Origin: a virus
Length of the DNA: 48,818 nt
UHGV virus genome: UHGV-1992300
Direction: 5' to 3' (one strand)
A program made the translations under genes and the position numbers. Numbering within the stretch: the first letter of the stretch is position 1; the number at the start of each line of letters is the position of its first letter. This document shows, piece after piece, positions 3,469 to 46,023 of this stretch. The notes under the pieces are model-generated. The model ran no database searches. It was given only the letters and a program-made list of their open reading frames with translations, and had not been told where the DNA came from.

Positions 3469-3526
3469 AAAAAGGGCGGCAGAGCAGTCACGGAGTAAAA
3501 CTGATACCGCCAAACGTCACCAGAAA
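3469..3526 (-). ncRNA. dicF: DicF-like small RNA
   Basis: Minus-strand read is TTTCTGGTGACGTTTGGCGGTATCAGTTTTACTCCGTGACTGCTCTGCCGCCCTTTTT: GC hairpin plus U-tract terminator, ~170 nt upstream of the DicB-like ORF, matching the DicF sequence as I recall it. Confidence 0.6.
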
Positions 3527-11561: not shown

Positions 11562-12082
11562 CCTGGCCTGAAGCATTAACAACGGTAGGAATTGCGATGG
11601 CGGTGGCGCTGGTGGTGTATTCGATTTGCCACTGGGGATAAAAACGGTTTGCGGGAAAAGGAGAGTTAAGTAGAATTGCAGCGGGTGCTTGAGGCTATCT
11701 GTCTCAGGCATGAACACCAAAAGGCAGATAGAGAAAAGCCCCAGTTAACATTACGCGTCCGGCAAGACGCTTAACATTAATCTGAGGCCATATCTATGCT
11801 CTACACACGTAGGTTAGCCTCTTACGTGCCGAAAGGCAAGGAGAAGCAGGNNNNNNNNNNNNNNNNNNNNNNNNNNNCTAATCGCCCTGATCGTCATCTG
11901 TTTAACCGTCATTGTGACGGCACTGGTAACGAGGAAAGACCTCTGCGAGGTACGAATCCGAACCGGCCAGACGGAGGTCGCTGTCTTCACAGCTTACGAA
12001 CCTGAGGAGTAAGAGACCCGGCGGGGGAGTAATCTCCCGCCACCTCTGATGTGCCAGGCATCCTCAACGCACCCGCACTTAA

Positions 12083-18507: not shown

Positions 18508-18583
18508 GGCCCTTTAGCTCAGTGGTGAGAGCGAGCGACTCATAATCGCCAGGTCGCTGGTTCAAATCCAGCAAGGGCCACCA
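18508..18583 (+). tRNA. tRNA, anticodon CAT (Ile2/Met type; ileZ-like)
   Basis: Cloverleaf read by eye: acceptor GGCCCTT/AAGGGCC, D-arm TAGCTCAGTGGTGAGAGC, anticodon loop CTCATAA, T-loop GGTTCAAATCC, 3' CCA. Confidence 0.85.
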
Positions 18584-18590
18584 TCACATA

Positions 18591-18667
18591 CCGCCATTAG
18601 CTCATCAGGAAAGAGCGCCAGCCTTCGAAGCTGGTTGCGCGGGGTTCAAGTCCCCGATGGCGGTCCA
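18591..18667 (+). tRNA. tRNA-Arg, anticodon TCG
   Basis: Acceptor CCGCCAT/ATGGCGG, anticodon stem-loop CCAGC-CTTCGAA-GCTGG, T-arm CGGGGTTCAAGTCCCCG, 3' CCA. Confidence 0.8.
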
Positions 18668-18680
18668 TTATCTGCATCAT

Positions 18681-18757
18681 GCGTTGTTAGCTCAGCCGGA
18701 CAGAGCAATTGCCTTCTAAGCAATCGGTCACTGGTTCGAATCCAGTACAACGCGCCA
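18681..18757 (+). tRNA. tRNA-Arg, anticodon TCT
   Basis: Acceptor GCGTTGT/ACAACGC, anticodon stem-loop ATTGC-CTTCTAA-GCAAT, T-arm ACTGGTTCGAATCCAGT, 3' CCA. Confidence 0.85.
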
Positions 18758-19048
18758 CACTTATTTTCCCTGGCTCGCTTTTGTGGGCCTTTTTTTTAAA
18801 TGTCTCACAATTTAGGCGGTTGACTGTTGTCTGGTTTGCGGGGAGTTTGTTAAAAGAAACTGGCATGGTGAATCCCCCTGTGCGGAGGGGCAATCAGCGA
18901 GTAGGTATATGGGATAATCGCGGATTCAGGTGCTGGTACTGAATTCACCGGGAGGCACCCGGCACCATGCAATGGCACATAGCGCCACTCTCCAGCCCCT
19001 CTCCGGAGGGGCTGTTTATATTGATTTTGTCAGATGTGAGTAAACTCC

Positions 19049-21606: not shown

Positions 21607-21962
21607 TAAAAAAAGCCGCCAGCGGCAGGAATGGAAGCTGGCGGAGGTAATCCCAATGGAGAATGTAAAGAAAAGATGCTTTCGACATCAATCATTTCTA
21701 AATGAAAACAGTTCTCATTGTCAACCATAACGGTAAGAAATTATGACATTTATTCATCAGGTAATGCTGTACTTCTGTATGGCAGTCTGTGTTATGTATC
21801 TTCTTTCGGGTGGGTACAGGGCAGTGCGCGATTTCTGGCGCAGGCAGATTGATAAAAGGGCCGCTGAGAGAATCAGCGCCAGTCAGTCAGCCGGAAGCAA
21901 ACCCGAAGATCCGCTCATTCCGTAGTCACTTTCTTGACAACACCTTTCAACGAGAAAATCCC

Positions 21963-40665: not shown

Positions 40666-41409
40666 ATGACACAGACTGAATCAGCGATTCTGGCGCATGC
40701 CCGGCGGTGTGCGCCTGCGGAGTCGTGCGGCTTCGTGATAAGCACGCCGGAGGGGGAGCGGTATATCCCTTGTGTGAATATTTCCGCGGAGCCGGAGGCG
40801 TATTTTCGTATCGCACCGGAAGACTGGCTGCGGGCAGAGATGCAGGGGGAGATTGTGGCACTGGTCCACAGTCATCCCGGTGGGCTGCCCTGGCTGAGCG
40901 AGGCTGACCGGCGGCTGCAGATAAAAAGCGCACTGCCCTGGTGGCTGGTCTGCCGGGGTGACATTCACAAATTCCGCTGTGTGCCACATCTGACGGGACG
41001 GCGCTTTGAGCACGGGGTGACGGACTGTTACACGCTGTTCCGGGATGCTTATCATCTGGCGGGGACTGAGATGCCGGATTTTCATCGCGAGGATGACTGG
41101 TGGCGTCACGGTCAGAATCTCTATCTGGATAATCTGGAGGCCACAGGGCTGTATCAGGTGCCGTTGTCAGCGGCGCAGCCGGGCGATGTGCTGCTGTGCT
41201 GTTTTGGTTCATCGGTGCCGAATCATGCCGCCATTTACTGTGGTGACGGCGAGCTGCTGCACCATATTCCTGAACAACTGAGTAAACGGGAGAGGTATTC
41301 CGAAAAATGGCAACGACGAACGCATTCTGTCTGGCGTCACCGCCACTGGCACGCATCTGCCTTCACGGGGATTTGCAACGATTTGGCCGCCGCCTCAGCC
41401 TGTATGTGA
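40666..41409 (+). CDS. K: tail assembly protein K (JAB/MPN + NlpC/P60-like)
   Basis: 'HSHPGG' JAB-type motif; overlaps gene I by ~100 nt as in lambda. Confidence 0.85.
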   Translation: MTQTESAILAHARRCAPAESCGFVISTPEGERYIPCVNISAEPEAYFRIAPEDWLRAEMQGEIVALVHSHPGGLPWLSEADRRLQIKSALPWWLVCRGDIHKFRCVPHLTGRRFEHGVTDCYTLFRDAYHLAGTEMPDFHREDDWWRHGQNLYLDNLEATGLYQVPLSAAQPGDVLLCCFGSSVPNHAAIYCGDGELLHHIPEQLSKRERYSEKWQRRTHSVWRHRHWHASAFTGICNDLAAASACM

Positions 41410-41987
41410 ACACGGCAGCGGAAGCCATCCGTGCCCTGTCGTTACAGGTGCCGGGCTTTCGCCGTCAGATGAACGAAGGCTGGTACCAGATACGTATTGC
41501 CGGTGATGACACGGCACCGGAGGCGGTGTACGCCCGTCTTCACGAACAGCTGGGTGAGGGAACGGTCATCCACATTGTGCCGCGACTGGCCGGAGCCGGA
41601 AAGGGCGGACTGCAGATTGTGCTGGGGGCGGCAGCCATCGTGGGCTCTTTCTTCACGGCCGGTGCCTCGATGGCGTTATGGGGTTCAGCCCTGGCAGCCG
41701 GTGGTTTTTCTGCCACCACGATGCTGTTTTCACTGGGGGCCAGCATGATACTGGGCGGTGTGGCCCAGATGCTGGCCCCGAAGGCAAAAACACCGGATTA
41801 CCGCGTAACGGATAACGGCAGACAGAACACGTACTTTTCCTCGCTGGATAACATGATTGCCCAGGGGAACCCGATGCCGGTGCCTTACGGGGAAATGCTG
41901 GTTGGCTCCCGCCGTATATCCCAGGACATCAGCACCCGTGATGAAGGCGGGGGCGGAAAGGTCGTGGTTATCGGGCGGCAGGGGTAA
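41307..41987 (+). CDS. I: tail assembly protein I
   Basis: 226 aa with Gly/Ala-rich hydrophobic C-terminal half; lambda I position; start not verified. Confidence 0.8.
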   Translation: MATTNAFCLASPPLARICLHGDLQRFGRRLSLYVNTAAEAIRALSLQVPGFRRQMNEGWYQIRIAGDDTAPEAVYARLHEQLGEGTVIHIVPRLAGAGKGGLQIVLGAAAIVGSFFTAGASMALWGSALAAGGFSATTMLFSLGASMILGGVAQMLAPKAKTPDYRVTDNGRQNTYFSSLDNMIAQGNPMPVPYGEMLVGSRRISQDISTRDEGGGGKVVVIGRQG

Positions 41988-42200
41988 AAAGAATAAAAAA
42001 ATCCCGCAGTGATCGCGGACAGGAACTGCGGGAGAGTTACGAAGATTAAGTGTAAGGAATTATTCTTATATCACGACAAAAAAATTAACGCAGAGAAATT
42101 ATACGCGCCACAGTCAGTTTGTGAAAATGTGAAGATATTCAGAATTTTTATGCCATTACCGGTTTTAACCAACAGGATTATCGGTGGGCATGAAAGAAAA

Positions 42201-42233
42201 CCCCGGTATCTGCTGATACCGGGGTTTCTCTTT
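42201..42233. terminator. strong bidirectional hairpin terminator between I and J
   Basis: Perfect 10-bp stem CCCCGGTATC-TGCT-GATACCGGGG with an A-tract on one side and a T-rich tract on the other. Confidence 0.6.
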
Positions 42234-42330
42234 AGCATGGCAGAAATGTGTTTCATGCTTTTCGGGCGAAGGATATCCGACTTCTGTACGGAATGGCAAG
42301 TGGCGGTTAATTTATTCAGGGGAAGGCTGT

Positions 42331-45300
42331 ATGGGAAAAGGTGGCGGTAAGGCACACACGCCTCGTGAGGCGAAGGATAATCTCAAATCCACGCAGATGA
42401 TGAGTGTGATTGATGCGATTGGTGAGGGACCGATAGAAGGCCCGGTGAAGGGACTGCAGAGTATCCTGGTGAACAAAACCCCGCTGACGGACACGGACGG
42501 TAATCCCGTGATACACGGTGTGACCGCGGTCTGGCGTGCCGGGGAGCAGGAGCAGACACCACCGGAAGGCTTTGAGTCCTCCGGAGCTGAAACCGGACTG
42601 GGCGTGGAAGTGACGAAGGCAAAACCGGTGACGCGCACCATTACGTCCGCGAACATTGACCGCCTGCGGGTTACCTTCGGGGTGCAGTCACTGGTGGAGA
42701 CCACCTCAAAGGGTGACCGTAACCCGGCATCCGTCCGCCTGCTGATTCAGTTACAGCGTAACGGTAACTGGGTGACAGAAAAGGACGTCACCATTAACGG
42801 CAAGACCACCTCACAGTTCCTGGCCTCGGTGATTCTGGATAATCTGCCTCCCCGGCCCTTTAACATCCGGATGGTCAGGGAGACGGCGGACAGCACCACG
42901 GACCAGCTGCAGAATAAGACGCTGTGGTCGTCATACACCGAAATCATCGATGTGAAACAGTGCTACCCGAACACGGCCATTGTGGGGCTGCAGGTGGATG
43001 CGGAGCAGTTCGGCGGCCAGCAGATGACGGTGAACTACCATATCCGCGGTCGCATCATCCAGGTGCCGTCAAACTATGACCCGGAAAAACGCACGTACAG
43101 TGGTATCTGGGACGGCAGCCTGAAACCGGCATACAGCAACAACCCGGCCTGGTGTCTGTGGGACATGCTGACTCACCCGCGCTACGGCATGGGAAAACGT
43201 CTGGGGGCGGCGGATGTGGACAAGTGGGCGCTGTATGCCATCGGGCAGTACTGCGACCAGACGGTCCCGGATGGTTTCGGGGGGACCGAGCCGCGGATGA
43301 CCTTTAATGCGTACCTGGCACAACAGCGTAAGGCGTGGGACGTTCTCAGTGATTTCTGCTCGGCGATGCGCTGTATGCCGGTATGGAACGGCCAGACGCT
43401 GACGTTCGTTCAGGACCGTCCGTCGGATGTGGTGTGGCCGTACACCAACAGCGATGTGGTGGTGGATGATAACGGCGTGGGGTTCCGCTACAGCTTCAGT
43501 GCCCTGAAGGACCGGCACACGGCGGTGGAGGTGAATTACACCGACCCGCAGAACGGCTGGCAGACCTCCACGGAACTGGTGGAAGACCCGGAAGCCATAC
43601 TGCGCTACGGACGCAACCTGCTGAAGATGGACGCGTTCGGCTGTACCAGCCGCGGTCAGGCCCACCGTGCCGGACTGTGGGTGATAAAGACCGAACTGCT
43701 GGAAACGCAGACGGTGGATTTCACGCTCGGGTCTCAGGGGCTGCGGCACACACCCGGTGACATCATTGAAATCTGTGATAACGACTATGCCGGGACCATG
43801 ACCGGCGGACGTGTCCTGTCCATCGATGCCGCCAGCCGTACCCTGACGCTGGACCGGGAGGTGACACTGCCGGAGACCGGCACGGCCACTGTTAATCTGA
43901 TTAACGGCAGCGGTAAGCCGGCGAGCGTGGCCATTACCGCACACCCCGCGCCGGACCGGATACAGGTCAGTACCCTGCCTGATGGTGTGGAGACATACGG
44001 GGTGTGGGGACTCTCCCTGCCGTCACTGCGTCGTCGCCTGTTTCGCTGTGTCTCCATCCGGGAAAACACGGACGGCACCTTTGCCATCACGGCGGTGCAG
44101 CACGTACCGGAAAAAGAAGCCATTGTGGATAACGGGGCCAGCTTTGAGCCGCAGTCAGGCAGCCTGAACAGCGTTATCCCACCGGCAGTGCAGCACCTGA
44201 CGGTGGAGGTGAGTGCAGCTGACGGTCAGTATCTGGCACAGGCGAAATGGGACACGCCGCGGGTGGTGAAGGGGGTGCGCTTCAGTCTGCGTCTGACCAG
44301 CGGAAGCGGAGAAGACAGCCGTCTGGTGAGCACCGCCATCACCGCAGACACGGAGCACCGTTTCAGTGGTCTGCCGCTGGGGGAATACACCCTGACGGTG
44401 CGGGCCATTAACAGCTACGGCCAGCAGGGCGAACCTGCGACCACCACATTCCGGATTGCCGCACCGGCAGCACCGTCGCGGATTGAGCTGACGCCGGGCT
44501 ATTTTCAGATAACGGCGGTCCCGCGTCTTGCGGTGTATGACCCGACGGTGCAGTTTGAATTCTGGTTCTCAGAAAAACGCATCACGAACACAGCACAGGT
44601 GGAAAAATCTGCCCGTTATCTGGGGACCGGCAGTCAGTGGACTGTCCAGGGGAGCCGGATTAAGCCGGGGACGGATTTCTGGTTTTACGTGCGAAGCGTC
44701 AACCTGGTGGGAAAATCTGCTTTTGTGGAAGCCAGCGGGCAGCCCAGCAATGATGGTGAAGGGTATCTGGAAATTTTCCGGGGGCTGATAGATGAGACGC
44801 TTCTGGGCCAGGCACTGAAAGAGCGCATTGATGCTTCAGCGCTGCGTACGGAGGTCACGCAACTGGAAGAAGATATCCGTCAGCGGATGGACACGGATAT
44901 CGCAGAAGTGACCCGGAAAATCGGGAAGGCGGAAAACAGCCTCACGCAGCTGGTTGCGAAAAAGAATGAGGACCAGACACTGGCCATCGCGCAGGTGAGC
45001 CAGAAAGTGGACCGGGTGAGCAGTGAAATCTCACAGACTGTCAGCCAGGGGCAGTCAGAAAACGCCCGACAGATAGCACAGGTCCGCCAGTACGTGGATA
45101 AAAAAGGGAGTGAAATTACCTCGACCACGGATAAAAAGCTGGGTGACCAGGCCGTGACCATACAGCAAATCCAGCGGGTTCAGTCAGACACGCGCAATGA
45201 GCTGAATGCCATGTATATGCTGAAGGTGCAGAAAACAAAAAACGGTATTCCCTATGTGGCCGGGATTGGCGCGGGGATTGAGGATGTTGATGGTCAGACC

Positions 45301-46023
45301 CTGAGTAACATTCTGCTGCAGGCCGATCGCATTGCGATGATTACCCCGGAGAACGGCAACACCACGCCGCTGTTTGTGGCGCAGGGGAATCAGCTGTTCA
45401 TGAACGACGTGTTCCTGAAGCGACTGTTTGCGGTGAGCATCACGTCATCCGGCAATCCTCCGACGTTTTCCCTGACGCCGGATGGCAGGCTGACAGCCCG
45501 CAATGCGGATATCAGTGGAGCCATCACGGCGAATACCGGCACGCTCAATAATGTCACCATTAACAAGAACTGTGTCATCAGAGGGAAACTGTCTGCAAAC
45601 CAGATTGAAGGCGATCTCGTTAAAACAGTGGGTAAGGCTTTCCCTCGTGACTCCCGTGCACCGAAGCGTTGGCCATCAGGAACCATTACCGTCAGGGTTT
45701 ATGACGATCAGCCGTTTAACCGGCAGATTGTTATTCCGGCGGTGGCTTTCAGCGGTGCCAGACATGAGCGGGAGAACAGCGATACTTATTCGTCATGCCG
45801 CCTGATAGTGAAGAAAAACGGTGCTGAAATTTATAACCGTACCGCGATGGATAATACGCTGGTTTACAGTGGTGTTATTGATATGCCTGCTGGTCGCGGC
45901 GACATGACGCTGGAGTTTTCTGTATCAGCATGGTGGGTAAATGGCTGGTATCCCACAGCAAGTATCAGCGATTTGCTGGTTGTTGTGATGAAGAAAGCCA
46001 CTGCAGGCATCACGATTAGCTGA
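42331..46023 (+). CDS. J: host-specificity / central tail fibre protein J
   Basis: 1230 aa; N-terminus '[22 protein letters not shown]' and most of the length collinear with lambda J; extra coiled-coil-like segment before the C-terminal receptor-binding part. Confidence 0.95.

What the first reader, a model, noticed from the sequence alone, without database searches (positions are those of the whole stretch)
41988..42330. 343-bp structured insert with a perfect bidirectional terminator between tail genes I and J
In lambda, I and J are contiguous. Here they are separated by non-coding-looking sequence containing an 8-bp inverted repeat (TCCCGCAG ... CTGCGGGA, ~42008-42040), a perfect 10-bp-stem hairpin flanked by A and T tracts (42201-42233), and another stem (AGCATG ... 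CATGCT, ~42234-42260). The two ORF-track ORFs here both read through the hairpin. This could be an sRNA gene, a regulatory attenuator within the late operon, or a remnant of an inserted element.
Basis: seen in the sequence. Interest (0 to 1): 0.45.

Follow-up and report, generated by a model that had tools for sequence, protein, structure and literature searches.

The report
PasB small-RNA gene plus terminator cassette
The 343-bp gap between prophage tail genes I and J holds, on the opposite strand, a divergent copy of a known Hfq-dependent small RNA (PasB, also called EcOnc22-24), followed by a near-invariant 179-bp cassette with a two-way transcription terminator; this is mostly known biology that genome annotation leaves unmarked.

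Summary
I ends at 41987, J starts at 42331, and all three inverted repeats are present.

**Left part (41988 to about 42151).** This is a minus-strand small-RNA gene.
- Promoter: TTCACA-16-TATAAT (42125..42098).
- RNA body: 42091/42078 to 41995.
- Terminator: CCCGCAG...CUGCGGG followed by U7.
- It sits where PasB of EPEC E2348/69 sits, immediately after I and antisense to it. It matches the published PasB Northern probe at 20 of 23 bases.
- A covariance model built only from other alleles hits it full length (57.9 bits, E=9e-9).
- Sakai EcOnc22/23/24 belong to the same family. I did not find that link stated in the papers I read.

**Right part (42152-42330).** This cassette is at least 99% identical in 1442 of 1451 E. 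coli records that carry it.
- It holds a 13-bp hairpin that looks like a terminator on both strands, plus the ribosome-binding site of J.
- It pairs freely with at least three PasB alleles.
- Its function is not shown. Lambda and E2348-type gaps carry unrelated plus-strand hairpins at the same place.

The I-J junction is a hot spot for inserted extra genes; Sakai Sp10 carries sodC there.

The parts
41995..42091 (-). PasB-family small RNA, window-type allele. The primary transcript predicted from the -10 box is 97 nt (42091 to 41995). The 5' end homologous to the annotated E2348/69 PasB 5' end is 42078, which gives 84 nt.
   Evidence: Model R1, built from six non-window alleles, hits 41995-42091(-) full length at 57.9 bits, E=9e-9; it is the only significant hit in the window. 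The PasB Northern probe AATCCCGCAGTGATCGCGGAGCT matches 42000-42019 at 20 of 23 bases. Global alignment to the 83-nt PasB gives 65 identities over 89 columns.
42002..42033 (-). Intrinsic terminator of the PasB-like RNA. The stem is CCCGCAG (42032..42026) paired with CUGCGGG (42009..42003), followed by A and U7 (42001..41995).
   Evidence: Terminator scan, fold. Stem and U-tract are invariant in 13 alleles while the loop varies.
42040..42047 (-). AAUCUUCG, holding the family-wide conserved AUCUU core in the single-stranded stretch just 5' of the terminator. This is the candidate seed.
   Evidence: ATCTT is the only invariant block in the RNA body across 13 alleles. Zhu et al. 2026 place the PasB seed just upstream of the terminator.
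42098..42125 (-). Sigma-70 promoter of the PasB-like gene: TTCACA (42125..42120), 16-nt spacer, TATAAT (42103..42098).
   Evidence: 11 of 12 consensus matches. The same promoter is found in E2348/69 PP6 and is conserved in most alleles.
42125..42146 (.). CRP-like palindrome AAATGTGAAGATATTCAGAATT (TGTGA-N6-TCAGA), immediately upstream of and overlapping the -35 box. This is a lead only.
   Evidence: The half-sites are kept in all promoter-bearing alleles, while the spacer differs in Sp15/14/11. The match is not significant on its own: 2 matches in the window against 1.39 expected.
42152..42330 (.). Near-invariant 179-bp cassette ('module B') that fills the rest of the gap up to the J start codon.
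   Evidence: At least 99% identical in 1442 of 1451 E. coli records and 100% in 13 phage records. Also present in 113 IMG/VR loci and in E. albertii. Found joined to at least 3 different PasB alleles.
42198..42227 (.). 13-bp perfect hairpin with loop TGCT. It looks like a terminator on both strands: plus-strand tail CUCUUU after three paired U's, minus-strand tail UCUUUCAU after three paired U's.
   Evidence: Folds with z = -5.7 and -7.1. The hairpin with this loop occurs only in this cassette; matches in other phyla have different loops and flanks.
42193..42263 (-). Hypothetical second small RNA of about 71 nt: a 5' stem AGCAUG/CAUGCU, an A-rich linker, and the hairpin as terminator. Weak candidate promoter TTGCCA-18-TATCCT at 42299..42270.
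   Evidence: The promoter-like hit is only 9 of 12, at the scan threshold. Fold is -31.9 kcal/mol, z = -7.1. No transcript evidence was found. Sakai Sp12 carries the cassette, but Tree et al. list no Hfq peak there.
42319..42333 (+). Ribosome-binding site of J (GGGGAAGG) and its ATG start codon (42331).
   Evidence: Read directly from the sequence and the ORF list.

Best explanation
The I-J gap is a moron (extra-DNA) insertion site holding two independently assorting modules.

**Module A (41988 to about 42151)** is a self-contained minus-strand gene for a PasB/EcOnc22-24-family small RNA. A near-consensus sigma-70 promoter starts transcription near 42091. The RNA ends at the CCCGCAG/CUGCGGG-U7 terminator, 8 nt past the stop codon of I.
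- By homology (inferred for this allele): it is made from the repressed prophage, binds and is stabilised by Hfq through its terminator hairpin and U-tail, and base-pairs with host and prophage mRNAs through the single-stranded AUCUUC region just 5' of the terminator.
- Around that core the window allele differs from the E2348/69 type, so its targets may differ.

**Module B (42152-42330)** supplies J's 5' leader and ribosome-binding site, plus a very stable hairpin with A/U tracts on both sides.
- Most likely this is an insulating bidirectional intrinsic terminator. On the plus strand it would stop non-antiterminated transcription coming from I before it reaches J. On the minus strand it would stop antisense transcription from the J side before it reaches the PasB promoter.
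- During lytic growth, Q-modified polymerase should read through both terminators (established lambda biology, not tested here).
For: **Position and strand.**
- PasB is at NC_011601 1466261..1466343 (-), 6 nt after I in the 240-bp I-J gap of prophage PP6. The window's module A aligns with it, promoter and terminator included.

**Formal family test.**
- Model R1, built without any window-type allele, gives 57.9 bits, E=9e-9, full length at 41995-42091(-).

**Experimental basis of the family.**
- PasB: the Northern band matches the size predicted from RNA-seq coverage (83 nt), stability depends on Hfq, RIL-seq partners are recorded, and levels are higher in overnight static LB than in DMEM.
- EcOnc22: about 85 nt, destabilised in a delta-hfq strain.
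- The J-I intergenic regions of Sakai Sp14, Sp11 and Sp15 rank 40th, 48th and 49th among Hfq-bound intergenic regions.
- After correcting the roughly 128-nt coordinate offset between genome versions, the EcOnc22-24 peaks cover the PasB-homologous body. The offset was checked on AgvB.

**Moron site.**
- Gap sizes: lambda 60 bp; Sakai Sp10 851 bp with sodC; Sp12 341 bp with PasB-2 plus module B.

**Module independence and invariance.**
-.

**Hairpin strength.**
-.

**Non-homologous plus-strand hairpins at the same place.**
- Lambda and the E2348 type.
Against: - There are no expression data for this allele or this strain.
- The true 5' end is uncertain. The annotated E2348/69 5' end lies 15 nt downstream of the start predicted from the TATAAT box.
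- Sakai Sp12 carries a PasB-2 allele plus module B, yet it is absent from Tree et al.'s peak list and from the top intergenic regions. Expression may therefore depend on allele or condition.
- The insulating-terminator role for module B is inference only. No plus-strand or minus-strand promoter that would need insulating has been shown.
- Near-total invariance of 179 bp is more than a terminator alone needs.
Confidence: 0.8

Rival explanations
1. Module B encodes a second, undescribed minus-strand small RNA of about 71 nt (42263 to about 42193), in tandem upstream of PasB. It would start at TTGCCA-18-TATCCT, form a 5' stem-loop (AGCAUG/CAUGCU), carry an A-rich linker, and use the 13-bp hairpin with a UUUUCUUU tail as an Hfq-type terminator module.
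For: The layout is typical of enterobacterial Hfq-dependent sRNAs. The 75-nt minus-strand fold is -31.9 kcal/mol, z = -7.1. A promoter-like site sits at the right distance. The whole 179 bp is near-invariant in about 1450 records, while the adjacent PasB alleles differ by roughly 25-30%, suggesting more constraint or more recent spread than a bare terminator would need.
Against: The promoter match is only 9 of 12, the scan's threshold, and such hits are common in shuffles (mean 0.7 per 1.3 kb). There is no Rfam match. Sakai Sp12 has the cassette, but no Hfq-CRAC peak is listed there. With no sequence variation there is no covariation test. Invariance also fits recent spread linked to a particular J allele.
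Confidence: 0.15
2. The hairpin acts on the plus strand as a feature of the late mRNA itself, either a 3' stabilising or processing barrier for the upstream tail-gene message or an attenuator that sets J expression. PasB, being fully complementary to the I-J spacer of the late transcript, would act in cis on that mRNA.
For: Three unrelated I-J gaps (lambda, E2348/Sp15 type, window type) each have a plus-strand hairpin followed by a U-rich tract upstream of J. Only the window's hairpin is also terminator-like on the minus strand. In the plus-strand fold of 42150-42245 the hairpin is embedded in a larger three-way structure at -42 kcal/mol, z = -5.9.
Against: There is no covariation and no experiment. 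The lambda hairpin is only modestly better than shuffles (z = -2.8). The distance from hairpin to J start varies from about 25 to 100 nt, so a direct effect on the J ribosome-binding site is unlikely. A competing anti-terminator pairing (UACCGG...) is much weaker than the 13-bp stem.
Confidence: 0.2
3. Module B is functionless filler: a scar of an older moron whose gene was lost, which hitch-hikes with a successful J allele.
For: The right edge of the invariant block continues into the first bases of J. No coding potential was found. No homologue exists outside this context.
Against: A 13-bp perfect hairpin with matched A and U tracts is unlikely to persist by chance. The cassette stays intact across B2/ST131, O157:H7, E. 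albertii and free phages. No partial or decayed copies were seen, apart from one IS-disrupted and one rearranged locus.
Confidence: 0.15

Closest known systems
PasB (pathogenicity-associated sRNA B) of EPEC E2348/69; Pearl Mizrahi et al. 2021 (PMC8550237); Zhu, Shabalina & Storz 2026 (bioRxiv 10.64898/2026.05.13.724894)
   Same: Same position and strand: immediately after tail gene I, antisense to the tail operon. Same TTCACA-16-TATAAT promoter, same CCCGCAG/CUGCGGG-U7 terminator, same AUCUUC core, similar length.
   Different: Only about 73% identical over the RNA body (65 of 89 aligned columns). The 5' half differs, the sequence next to the core differs (UAAUCUUCGUAAC against UGAUCUUCAUUUGUC), and the terminator loop is 5 nt longer. 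[quoted passage not shown] No expression or target data exist for this allele.
EcOnc22/EcOnc23/EcOnc24 of EHEC O157:H7 Sakai prophages Sp15, Sp14 and Sp11; Tree et al. 2014 (PMC4104026)
   Same: Same I-J gap and same antisense strand. About 85 nt and Hfq-dependent. Same terminator and AUCUUC core.
   Different: A third allele, with a weaker promoter (AATAAT -10 box, no TTCACA -35 box) and a 240-bp gap that lacks module B. The equivalence of EcOnc22-24 with PasB is my inference from coordinates and alignment. It is not noted in the PasB entry of Pearl Mizrahi et al.'s Table S6, and 'EcOnc' does not occur in the main text of Zhu et al.
Lambdoid 'morons' (Juhala et al. 2000; Hendrix and colleagues), for example sodC-F1/F2 of O157 prophages (D'Orazio et al. 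2008, PMC2569942)
   Same: An autonomous promoter-gene-terminator unit inserted between essential late genes and transcribed from the prophage against or independently of the late operon. sodC occupies this same I-J junction in Sakai Sp10.
   Different: The cargo here is a non-coding RNA plus a gene-less terminator cassette, not a protein gene.
AgvB/AsxR anti-sRNAs and the convergent sRNA pairs downstream of PR' (Tree et al. 2014)
   Same: Prophage-encoded, Hfq-binding short RNAs with a conserved 3' terminator module and variable 5' or seed regions. Alleles are shuffled by recombination.
   Different: Different locus (the lysis/Q region, not the tail operon), different sequence family, 51-60 nt. 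There is no evidence that PasB acts as a sponge for another sRNA.

Membership tests
PasB / EcOnc22-24 sRNA family | Located in the I-J intergenic region of a lambdoid prophage, antisense to the tail genes, with its terminator next to the stop codon of I | tested here: met
   In the window the U-tract ends at 41995 and the I stop codon ends at 41987. Same arrangement in E2348/69 PP6, Sakai Sp11/14/15/12 and phage PhiR5_1.
PasB / EcOnc22-24 sRNA family | Sequence and structure homology to known members | tested here: met
   A covariance model built from six alleles that exclude the window type gives 57.9 bits, E=9e-9, model positions 1-97 of 97. The PasB probe matches 20 of 23 bases.
PasB / EcOnc22-24 sRNA family | Own sigma-70 promoter | tested here: met
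   TTCACA-16-TATAAT, 11 of 12 matches, at 42125..42098; identical hexamers in E2348/69. This is a consensus match only. The transcription start site is not mapped.
PasB / EcOnc22-24 sRNA family | Rho-independent terminator hairpin plus U-tract (the Hfq-binding module) | tested here: met
   A 7-bp invariant stem plus U7.
PasB / EcOnc22-24 sRNA family | Conserved single-stranded seed just 5' of the terminator | tested here: met
   The AUCUU core is invariant in 13 alleles and unpaired in the minimum-energy and centroid folds of the window RNA. The bases flanking the core differ.
PasB / EcOnc22-24 sRNA family | Expressed as an RNA of about 83-85 nt, stabilised by Hfq, and base-pairing with mRNAs | not testable with these tools
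   Shown for E2348/69 PasB and Sakai EcOnc22. There are no data for the window allele.
Bidirectional intrinsic terminator | G+C-rich stem-loop flanked by an A-tract 5' and a U-tract 3', so that both strands read as hairpin plus U-rich tail | tested here: met
   13-bp stem at 42198-42227. The plus-strand RNA reads GGGGUUUCUCUUU and the minus-strand RNA reads GGGGUUUUCUUUCAU. The tool's terminator scan did not list it; it did list shorter stems. Why it was missed was not checked.
Bidirectional intrinsic terminator | Termination actually occurs in vivo or in vitro | not testable with these tools
   Needs term-seq or in vitro transcription.
Any Rfam family (for module B) | A match at or above the gathering score | tested here: not met
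   No gathering-level hit in 41988-42330. The best sub-threshold hits are generic terminator look-alikes, such as SSRC34_2 at 27.3 bits against a threshold of 48.
CRP-dependent promoter (for the PasB promoter) | A TGTGA-N6-TCACA site centred near -41.5 or -61.5 | tested here: inconclusive
   TGTGAAGATATTCAGA at 42128-42143, centred about -44.5 from the predicted start. The half-sites are conserved across alleles, but the match is not significant by itself and the spacing is atypical.

The most novel reading that the evidence does not exclude
The invariant 179-bp cassette is a functional unit in its own right. It could be a second tandem Hfq-type sRNA of about 71 nt, or a mobile 'terminator/leader' module that recombines freely with PasB alleles. 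More broadly, a plus-strand hairpin immediately upstream of J would be a conserved, selected feature of lambdoid late operons, since lambda, the E2348 type and the window type each have a non-homologous one. In addition, PasB alleles with different seed-flanking sequences would form an allelic series with distinct host targets, analogous to the variable 5' regions of AgvB and AsxR.
Probability: 0.2. Interest if true: 0.45.

Novelty: new member of a known kind. Interest (0 to 1): 0.3.

Why it matters
- **An annotation gap.** A small-RNA locus present in about 1660 of 5426 complete E. coli genomes has no annotated feature under the match in any of the 30 RefSeq records sampled. These include ST131, O157:H7 and reference strains. 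The locus has no Rfam model. Model R1, or the alignment behind it, could be used to annotate it.
- **Two literatures joined.** Linking EcOnc22-24 (EHEC, 2014) with PasB (EPEC, 2021 and 2026) shows the family is broader and more variable than the few-nucleotide variants described so far. Alleles differ next to the presumed seed.
- **Why terminators sit inside a late operon.** The I-J junction is a moron site that can carry either an sRNA or sodC. This explains the terminators: they belong to prophage-expressed cargo and are tolerated because late transcription is antiterminated.
- **What remains ordinary.** None of this is conceptually new. Prophage-encoded Hfq sRNAs and morons are well established.

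Tried and rejected
1. **Rfam**, at gathering and at permissive thresholds: nothing for the gap.
2. **Protein coding.** The three ORFs crossing the gap have no Pfam match and run through the terminator. Rejected.
3. **Module B as a remnant of the sodC moron.** BLAST of the window gap against the Sakai Sp10 sodC gap matches only the PasB body and the J start. Rejected.
4. **Origin of the hairpin elsewhere.** An exact-pattern scan of 185,579 species genomes and of IMG/VR finds the hairpin with loop TGCT only in this cassette. The Hahellaceae and Oscillospiraceae matches have other loops and unrelated flanks, so they are chance.
5. **EcOnc33 and EcOnc54 (Sakai Sp6) and EcOnc35 (Sp4) as candidates for a module-B transcript.** They map to other loci.
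6. **A plus-strand promoter that would make a divergent sRNA ending at the hairpin.** The scan finds none, and a class II CRP geometry does not fit the E2348 type.
7. **Covariation analysis.** Not possible for module B, which does not vary, and uninformative for the PasB terminator, whose stem is invariant.
8. **My first idea that the PasB body is simply the 3' UTR of sodC-F.** This was weakened by a terminator-like hairpin right after the sodC stop codon.
9. **IMG/VR variant v26 (L074).** This is a rearranged prophage with a J C-terminus and lom abutting the cassette. Uninformative.

Full report
**1. Observation**

Tail gene I is the ORF 41307..41987 and J is 42331..46023, which leaves a 343-bp gap.
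- TCCCGCAG (42002-42009) pairs with CTGCGGGA (42026-42033).
- CCCCGGTATC (42201-42210) pairs with GATACCGGGG (42215-42224), with loop TGCT. A:T pairs extend this stem to 13 bp (42198-42227), and it has A-rich and T-rich flanks.
- AGCATG (42234-42239) pairs with CATGCT (42254-42259).

The large hairpin is far beyond chance: z = -5.7 on the plus strand and z = -7.1 for the 75-nt minus-strand segment, with 0 of 200 shuffles folding as well. The two ORFs that cross the gap (113 aa on plus, 94 aa on minus) have no Pfam match. Lambda itself has a 60-bp I-J gap, not contiguity.

**2. The left half is a known small-RNA gene on the other strand**

The consensus scan finds two features on the minus strand: a near-perfect sigma-70 promoter, TTCACA-16-TATAAT at 42125..42098 (11 of 12), and a terminator at 42019..42003 followed by T7.

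Literature search led to PasB. This is one of five prophage sRNAs of EPEC E2348/69 found by Hfq RIL-seq. Its Northern band matches the size predicted from RNA-seq coverage (83 nt), it is Hfq-dependent, and it is more abundant in overnight static LB than in DMEM (PMC8550237).
- The published Northern probe AATCCCGCAGTGATCGCGGAGCT matches the window plus strand at 42000-42019 (20 of 23 bases). The RNA is therefore minus-strand.
- PasB maps to NC_011601 1466261..1466343 (-), 6 nt after the I homologue, in a 240-bp I-J gap.
- The window aligns with that gap from the I stop codon through the promoter.
- A covariance model built from six alleles that exclude the window type finds 41995-42091(-) full length at 57.9 bits, E=9e-9. 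It is the only significant hit in 48.8 kb.

The RNA would be 97 nt if it starts 7 nt after the TATAAT box (42091). It would be 84 nt if its 5' end matches the annotated E2348/69 end (42078). Identity to the 83-nt PasB is 65 of 89 aligned columns.

**3. EcOnc22-24 belong to the same family**

Tree et al. 2014 list EcOnc22, EcOnc23 and EcOnc24 in Sakai Sp15, Sp14 and Sp11. The RNA is about 85 nt and is destabilised in a delta-hfq strain. Their Table S1B ranks the J-I intergenic regions of these three prophages 40th, 48th and 49th among Hfq-bound intergenic regions.

The published peak coordinates sit 22-84 nt from the J start in NC_002695.2. However, the paper used the older genome version.
- The AgvB peak (old coordinates 1941783-1941835) corresponds to the Rfam AgvB hit at 1941920-1941981 in the current record. 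That is an offset of about 128-137 nt.
- This fits the 128-nt length difference between versions. The old length of 5,498,450 is from my own knowledge.
- With +128, the three peaks cover CTTTTTTGATGCCTGAAAAATAACTCCATAACGTTAATCTTCATCGTTCTCTCCCGCAG, which is the PasB-homologous body on the PasB strand.

The PasB entry of Pearl Mizrahi et al.'s Table S6 carries no homologue note, although the PasA and PasD1 entries do. The term 'EcOnc' does not occur in the main text of Zhu et al. 2026. I did not find the link stated in the papers I read. It is an inference that depends on the offset being uniform beyond 1.94 Mb.

**4. Family anatomy**

Thirteen alleles were aligned.
- Invariant features: the terminator stem and U-tract, and an AUCUU core just 5' of it. 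Zhu et al. place the seed there.
- Variable features: the 5' half, the flanks of the core, and the terminator loop.
- Most alleles keep TTCACA-16-TATAAT. Sp11/14/15 have AATAAT and no good -35 box.
- Upstream of the -35 box, all promoter-bearing alleles keep TGTGA-N6-TCAGA (window 42128-42143), while the 6-nt spacer differs in Sp15. This looks like a CRP site and would fit PasB's high level in glucose-free stationary culture. However, the site is not significant alone (2 found, 1.39 expected), and its centre at about -44.5 is atypical. I treat it as a lead only.

**5. The right half is a separate, near-invariant cassette**

Positions 42152-42330 are at least 99% identical in 1442 of 1451 E. 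coli records that carry them (1446 of 5426 genomes). These include ST131 and O157:H7 strains. The cassette is also found in 13 phage records, in 113 IMG/VR loci and in E. albertii.
- It is joined to the window-type, the E2348/PasB-2-type and an Sp15-like PasB allele, and to a hybrid allele.
- Conversely, phage PhiR5_1 has the window-type PasB allele with the 240-bp type of gap.
- The two modules therefore assort independently.
- Blastn in 'distant' mode finds no diverged or partial relatives. The hairpin with its TGCT loop exists nowhere else.
- Because the cassette does not vary, covariation cannot be tested.

What the cassette contains: the ribosome-binding site of J; the 13-bp hairpin, which reads as stem plus U-rich tail on both strands; and, on the minus strand, a weak promoter-like site (TTGCCA-18-TATCCT, 9 of 12). 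That site could give an sRNA-shaped transcript of about 71 nt.

Sakai Sp12 carries PasB-2 plus this cassette, but no Hfq peak is listed there. This is weak evidence against an abundant Hfq-bound RNA from the cassette under those conditions.

**6. Context: a moron site with a recurring hairpin**

The I-J gap takes several sizes:

| Phage or prophage | Gap size | Content |
|---|---|---|
| Lambda | 60 bp | Plus-strand hairpin |
| E2348/69 PP6; Sakai Sp11, Sp14, Sp15; PhiR5_1 | 240 bp | PasB-family gene plus a different plus-strand hairpin |
| This window; Sakai Sp12 | 343 bp; 341 bp | PasB-family gene plus module B |
| Sakai Sp10 | 851 bp | sodC-F on the minus strand, followed by a promoterless window-type PasB body |

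Sakai Sp9 is a separate case: I is not annotated, and the 187-bp L-J gap keeps the PasB promoter and the 5' part of the body but lacks the terminator.

Three non-homologous plus-strand hairpins followed by U-rich tracts lie upstream of J:
- lambda: GAAACCGCC-TGCG-GGCGGTTTT;
- E2348 type: GCAGGCACC...GGTGCCTGT followed by TGTTTTTG;
- the window's 13-bp hairpin.

This recurrence suggests a plus-strand role, either stopping non-antiterminated transcription before J or acting as a 3' stability barrier. That is inference only.

**7. Verdict**

The finding is real, and its main content is explained. It is a divergent, unannotated allele of the PasB/EcOnc22-24 Hfq-dependent sRNA, carried as a moron antisense to the late operon. 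Next to it sits a widely spread, invariant terminator/leader cassette whose function is unproven.

- Shown here: coordinates, homology, promoter and terminator motifs, distribution, and modularity.
- Inferred: expression and Hfq dependence of this allele, the seed, the insulating role of the hairpin, Q read-through, and CRP control.

I rate it a new member of a known kind, of modest interest.

Noticed in passing
window 3474-3525 (-), 11683-11850 (+), 18508-18754 (+), 18834-19023 (+): Rfam gathering-level hits elsewhere in the window: DicF, sok (a hok/sok-type antitoxin RNA), three tRNAs and STnc100. The prophage carries several other small-RNA morons.
   Followed up: no
L007 40485-41335 (Sakai Sp10, NC_002695.2 1963484-1964334); L129 (strain Z1323CEC0012): In alleles that carry sodC-F, a window-type PasB body and terminator remain next to I. 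The PasB promoter and the CRP-like block are replaced by sodC and its own terminator-like hairpin (L007 40668..40645). The PasB copy there is either a promoterless remnant or is made only by read-through from sodC.
   Followed up: partly
L132 746-805 (lambda J02459 15445-15504); L001 1931-1954 (E2348/69 PP6): Lambda's 60-bp I-J gap and the 240-bp E2348/Sp15-type gap each contain their own plus-strand hairpin followed by a U-rich tract just upstream of J. Neither is homologous to the other or to the window's hairpin.
   Followed up: partly
window 42125-42146: A CRP-like palindrome AAATGTGAAGATATTCAGAATT overlaps the upstream edge of the PasB -35 box. Its half-sites are conserved across alleles while the spacer varies. 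PasB is reported to be higher in static overnight LB than in DMEM, the opposite of Spot 42, which is repressed by CRP according to prior knowledge.
   Followed up: partly
Sakai NC_002695.2 against the coordinates in Tree et al. 2014 Table S2: The published EcOnc coordinates are about 128-137 nt lower than in the current RefSeq record, from at least 1.94 Mb onward. Taken at face value, they put EcOnc22-24 and AgvB1 in the wrong place.
   Followed up: yes
L126 2586-2772 (Sakai Sp9): Sp9 has a deletion that joins a truncated tail gene L to J. The 187-bp gap keeps the PasB promoter and the 5' part of the RNA body but lacks its terminator and gene I. It is probably a dead copy.
   Followed up: no
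window 21608-21698 (-): A weak, non-significant hit of the PasB model (17.9 bits, E=0.35), driven by a terminator-like hairpin plus U7. It may be another small transcript end.
   Followed up: no
L021 (IMG/VR variant v19), L074 (variant v26): One copy of the cassette is interrupted at about window position 42180 by unrelated sequence (it looked transposase-like by eye; not checked). Another copy abuts an inverted J C-terminus and lom segment. These are rearrangements at the cassette's left edge.
   Followed up: partly
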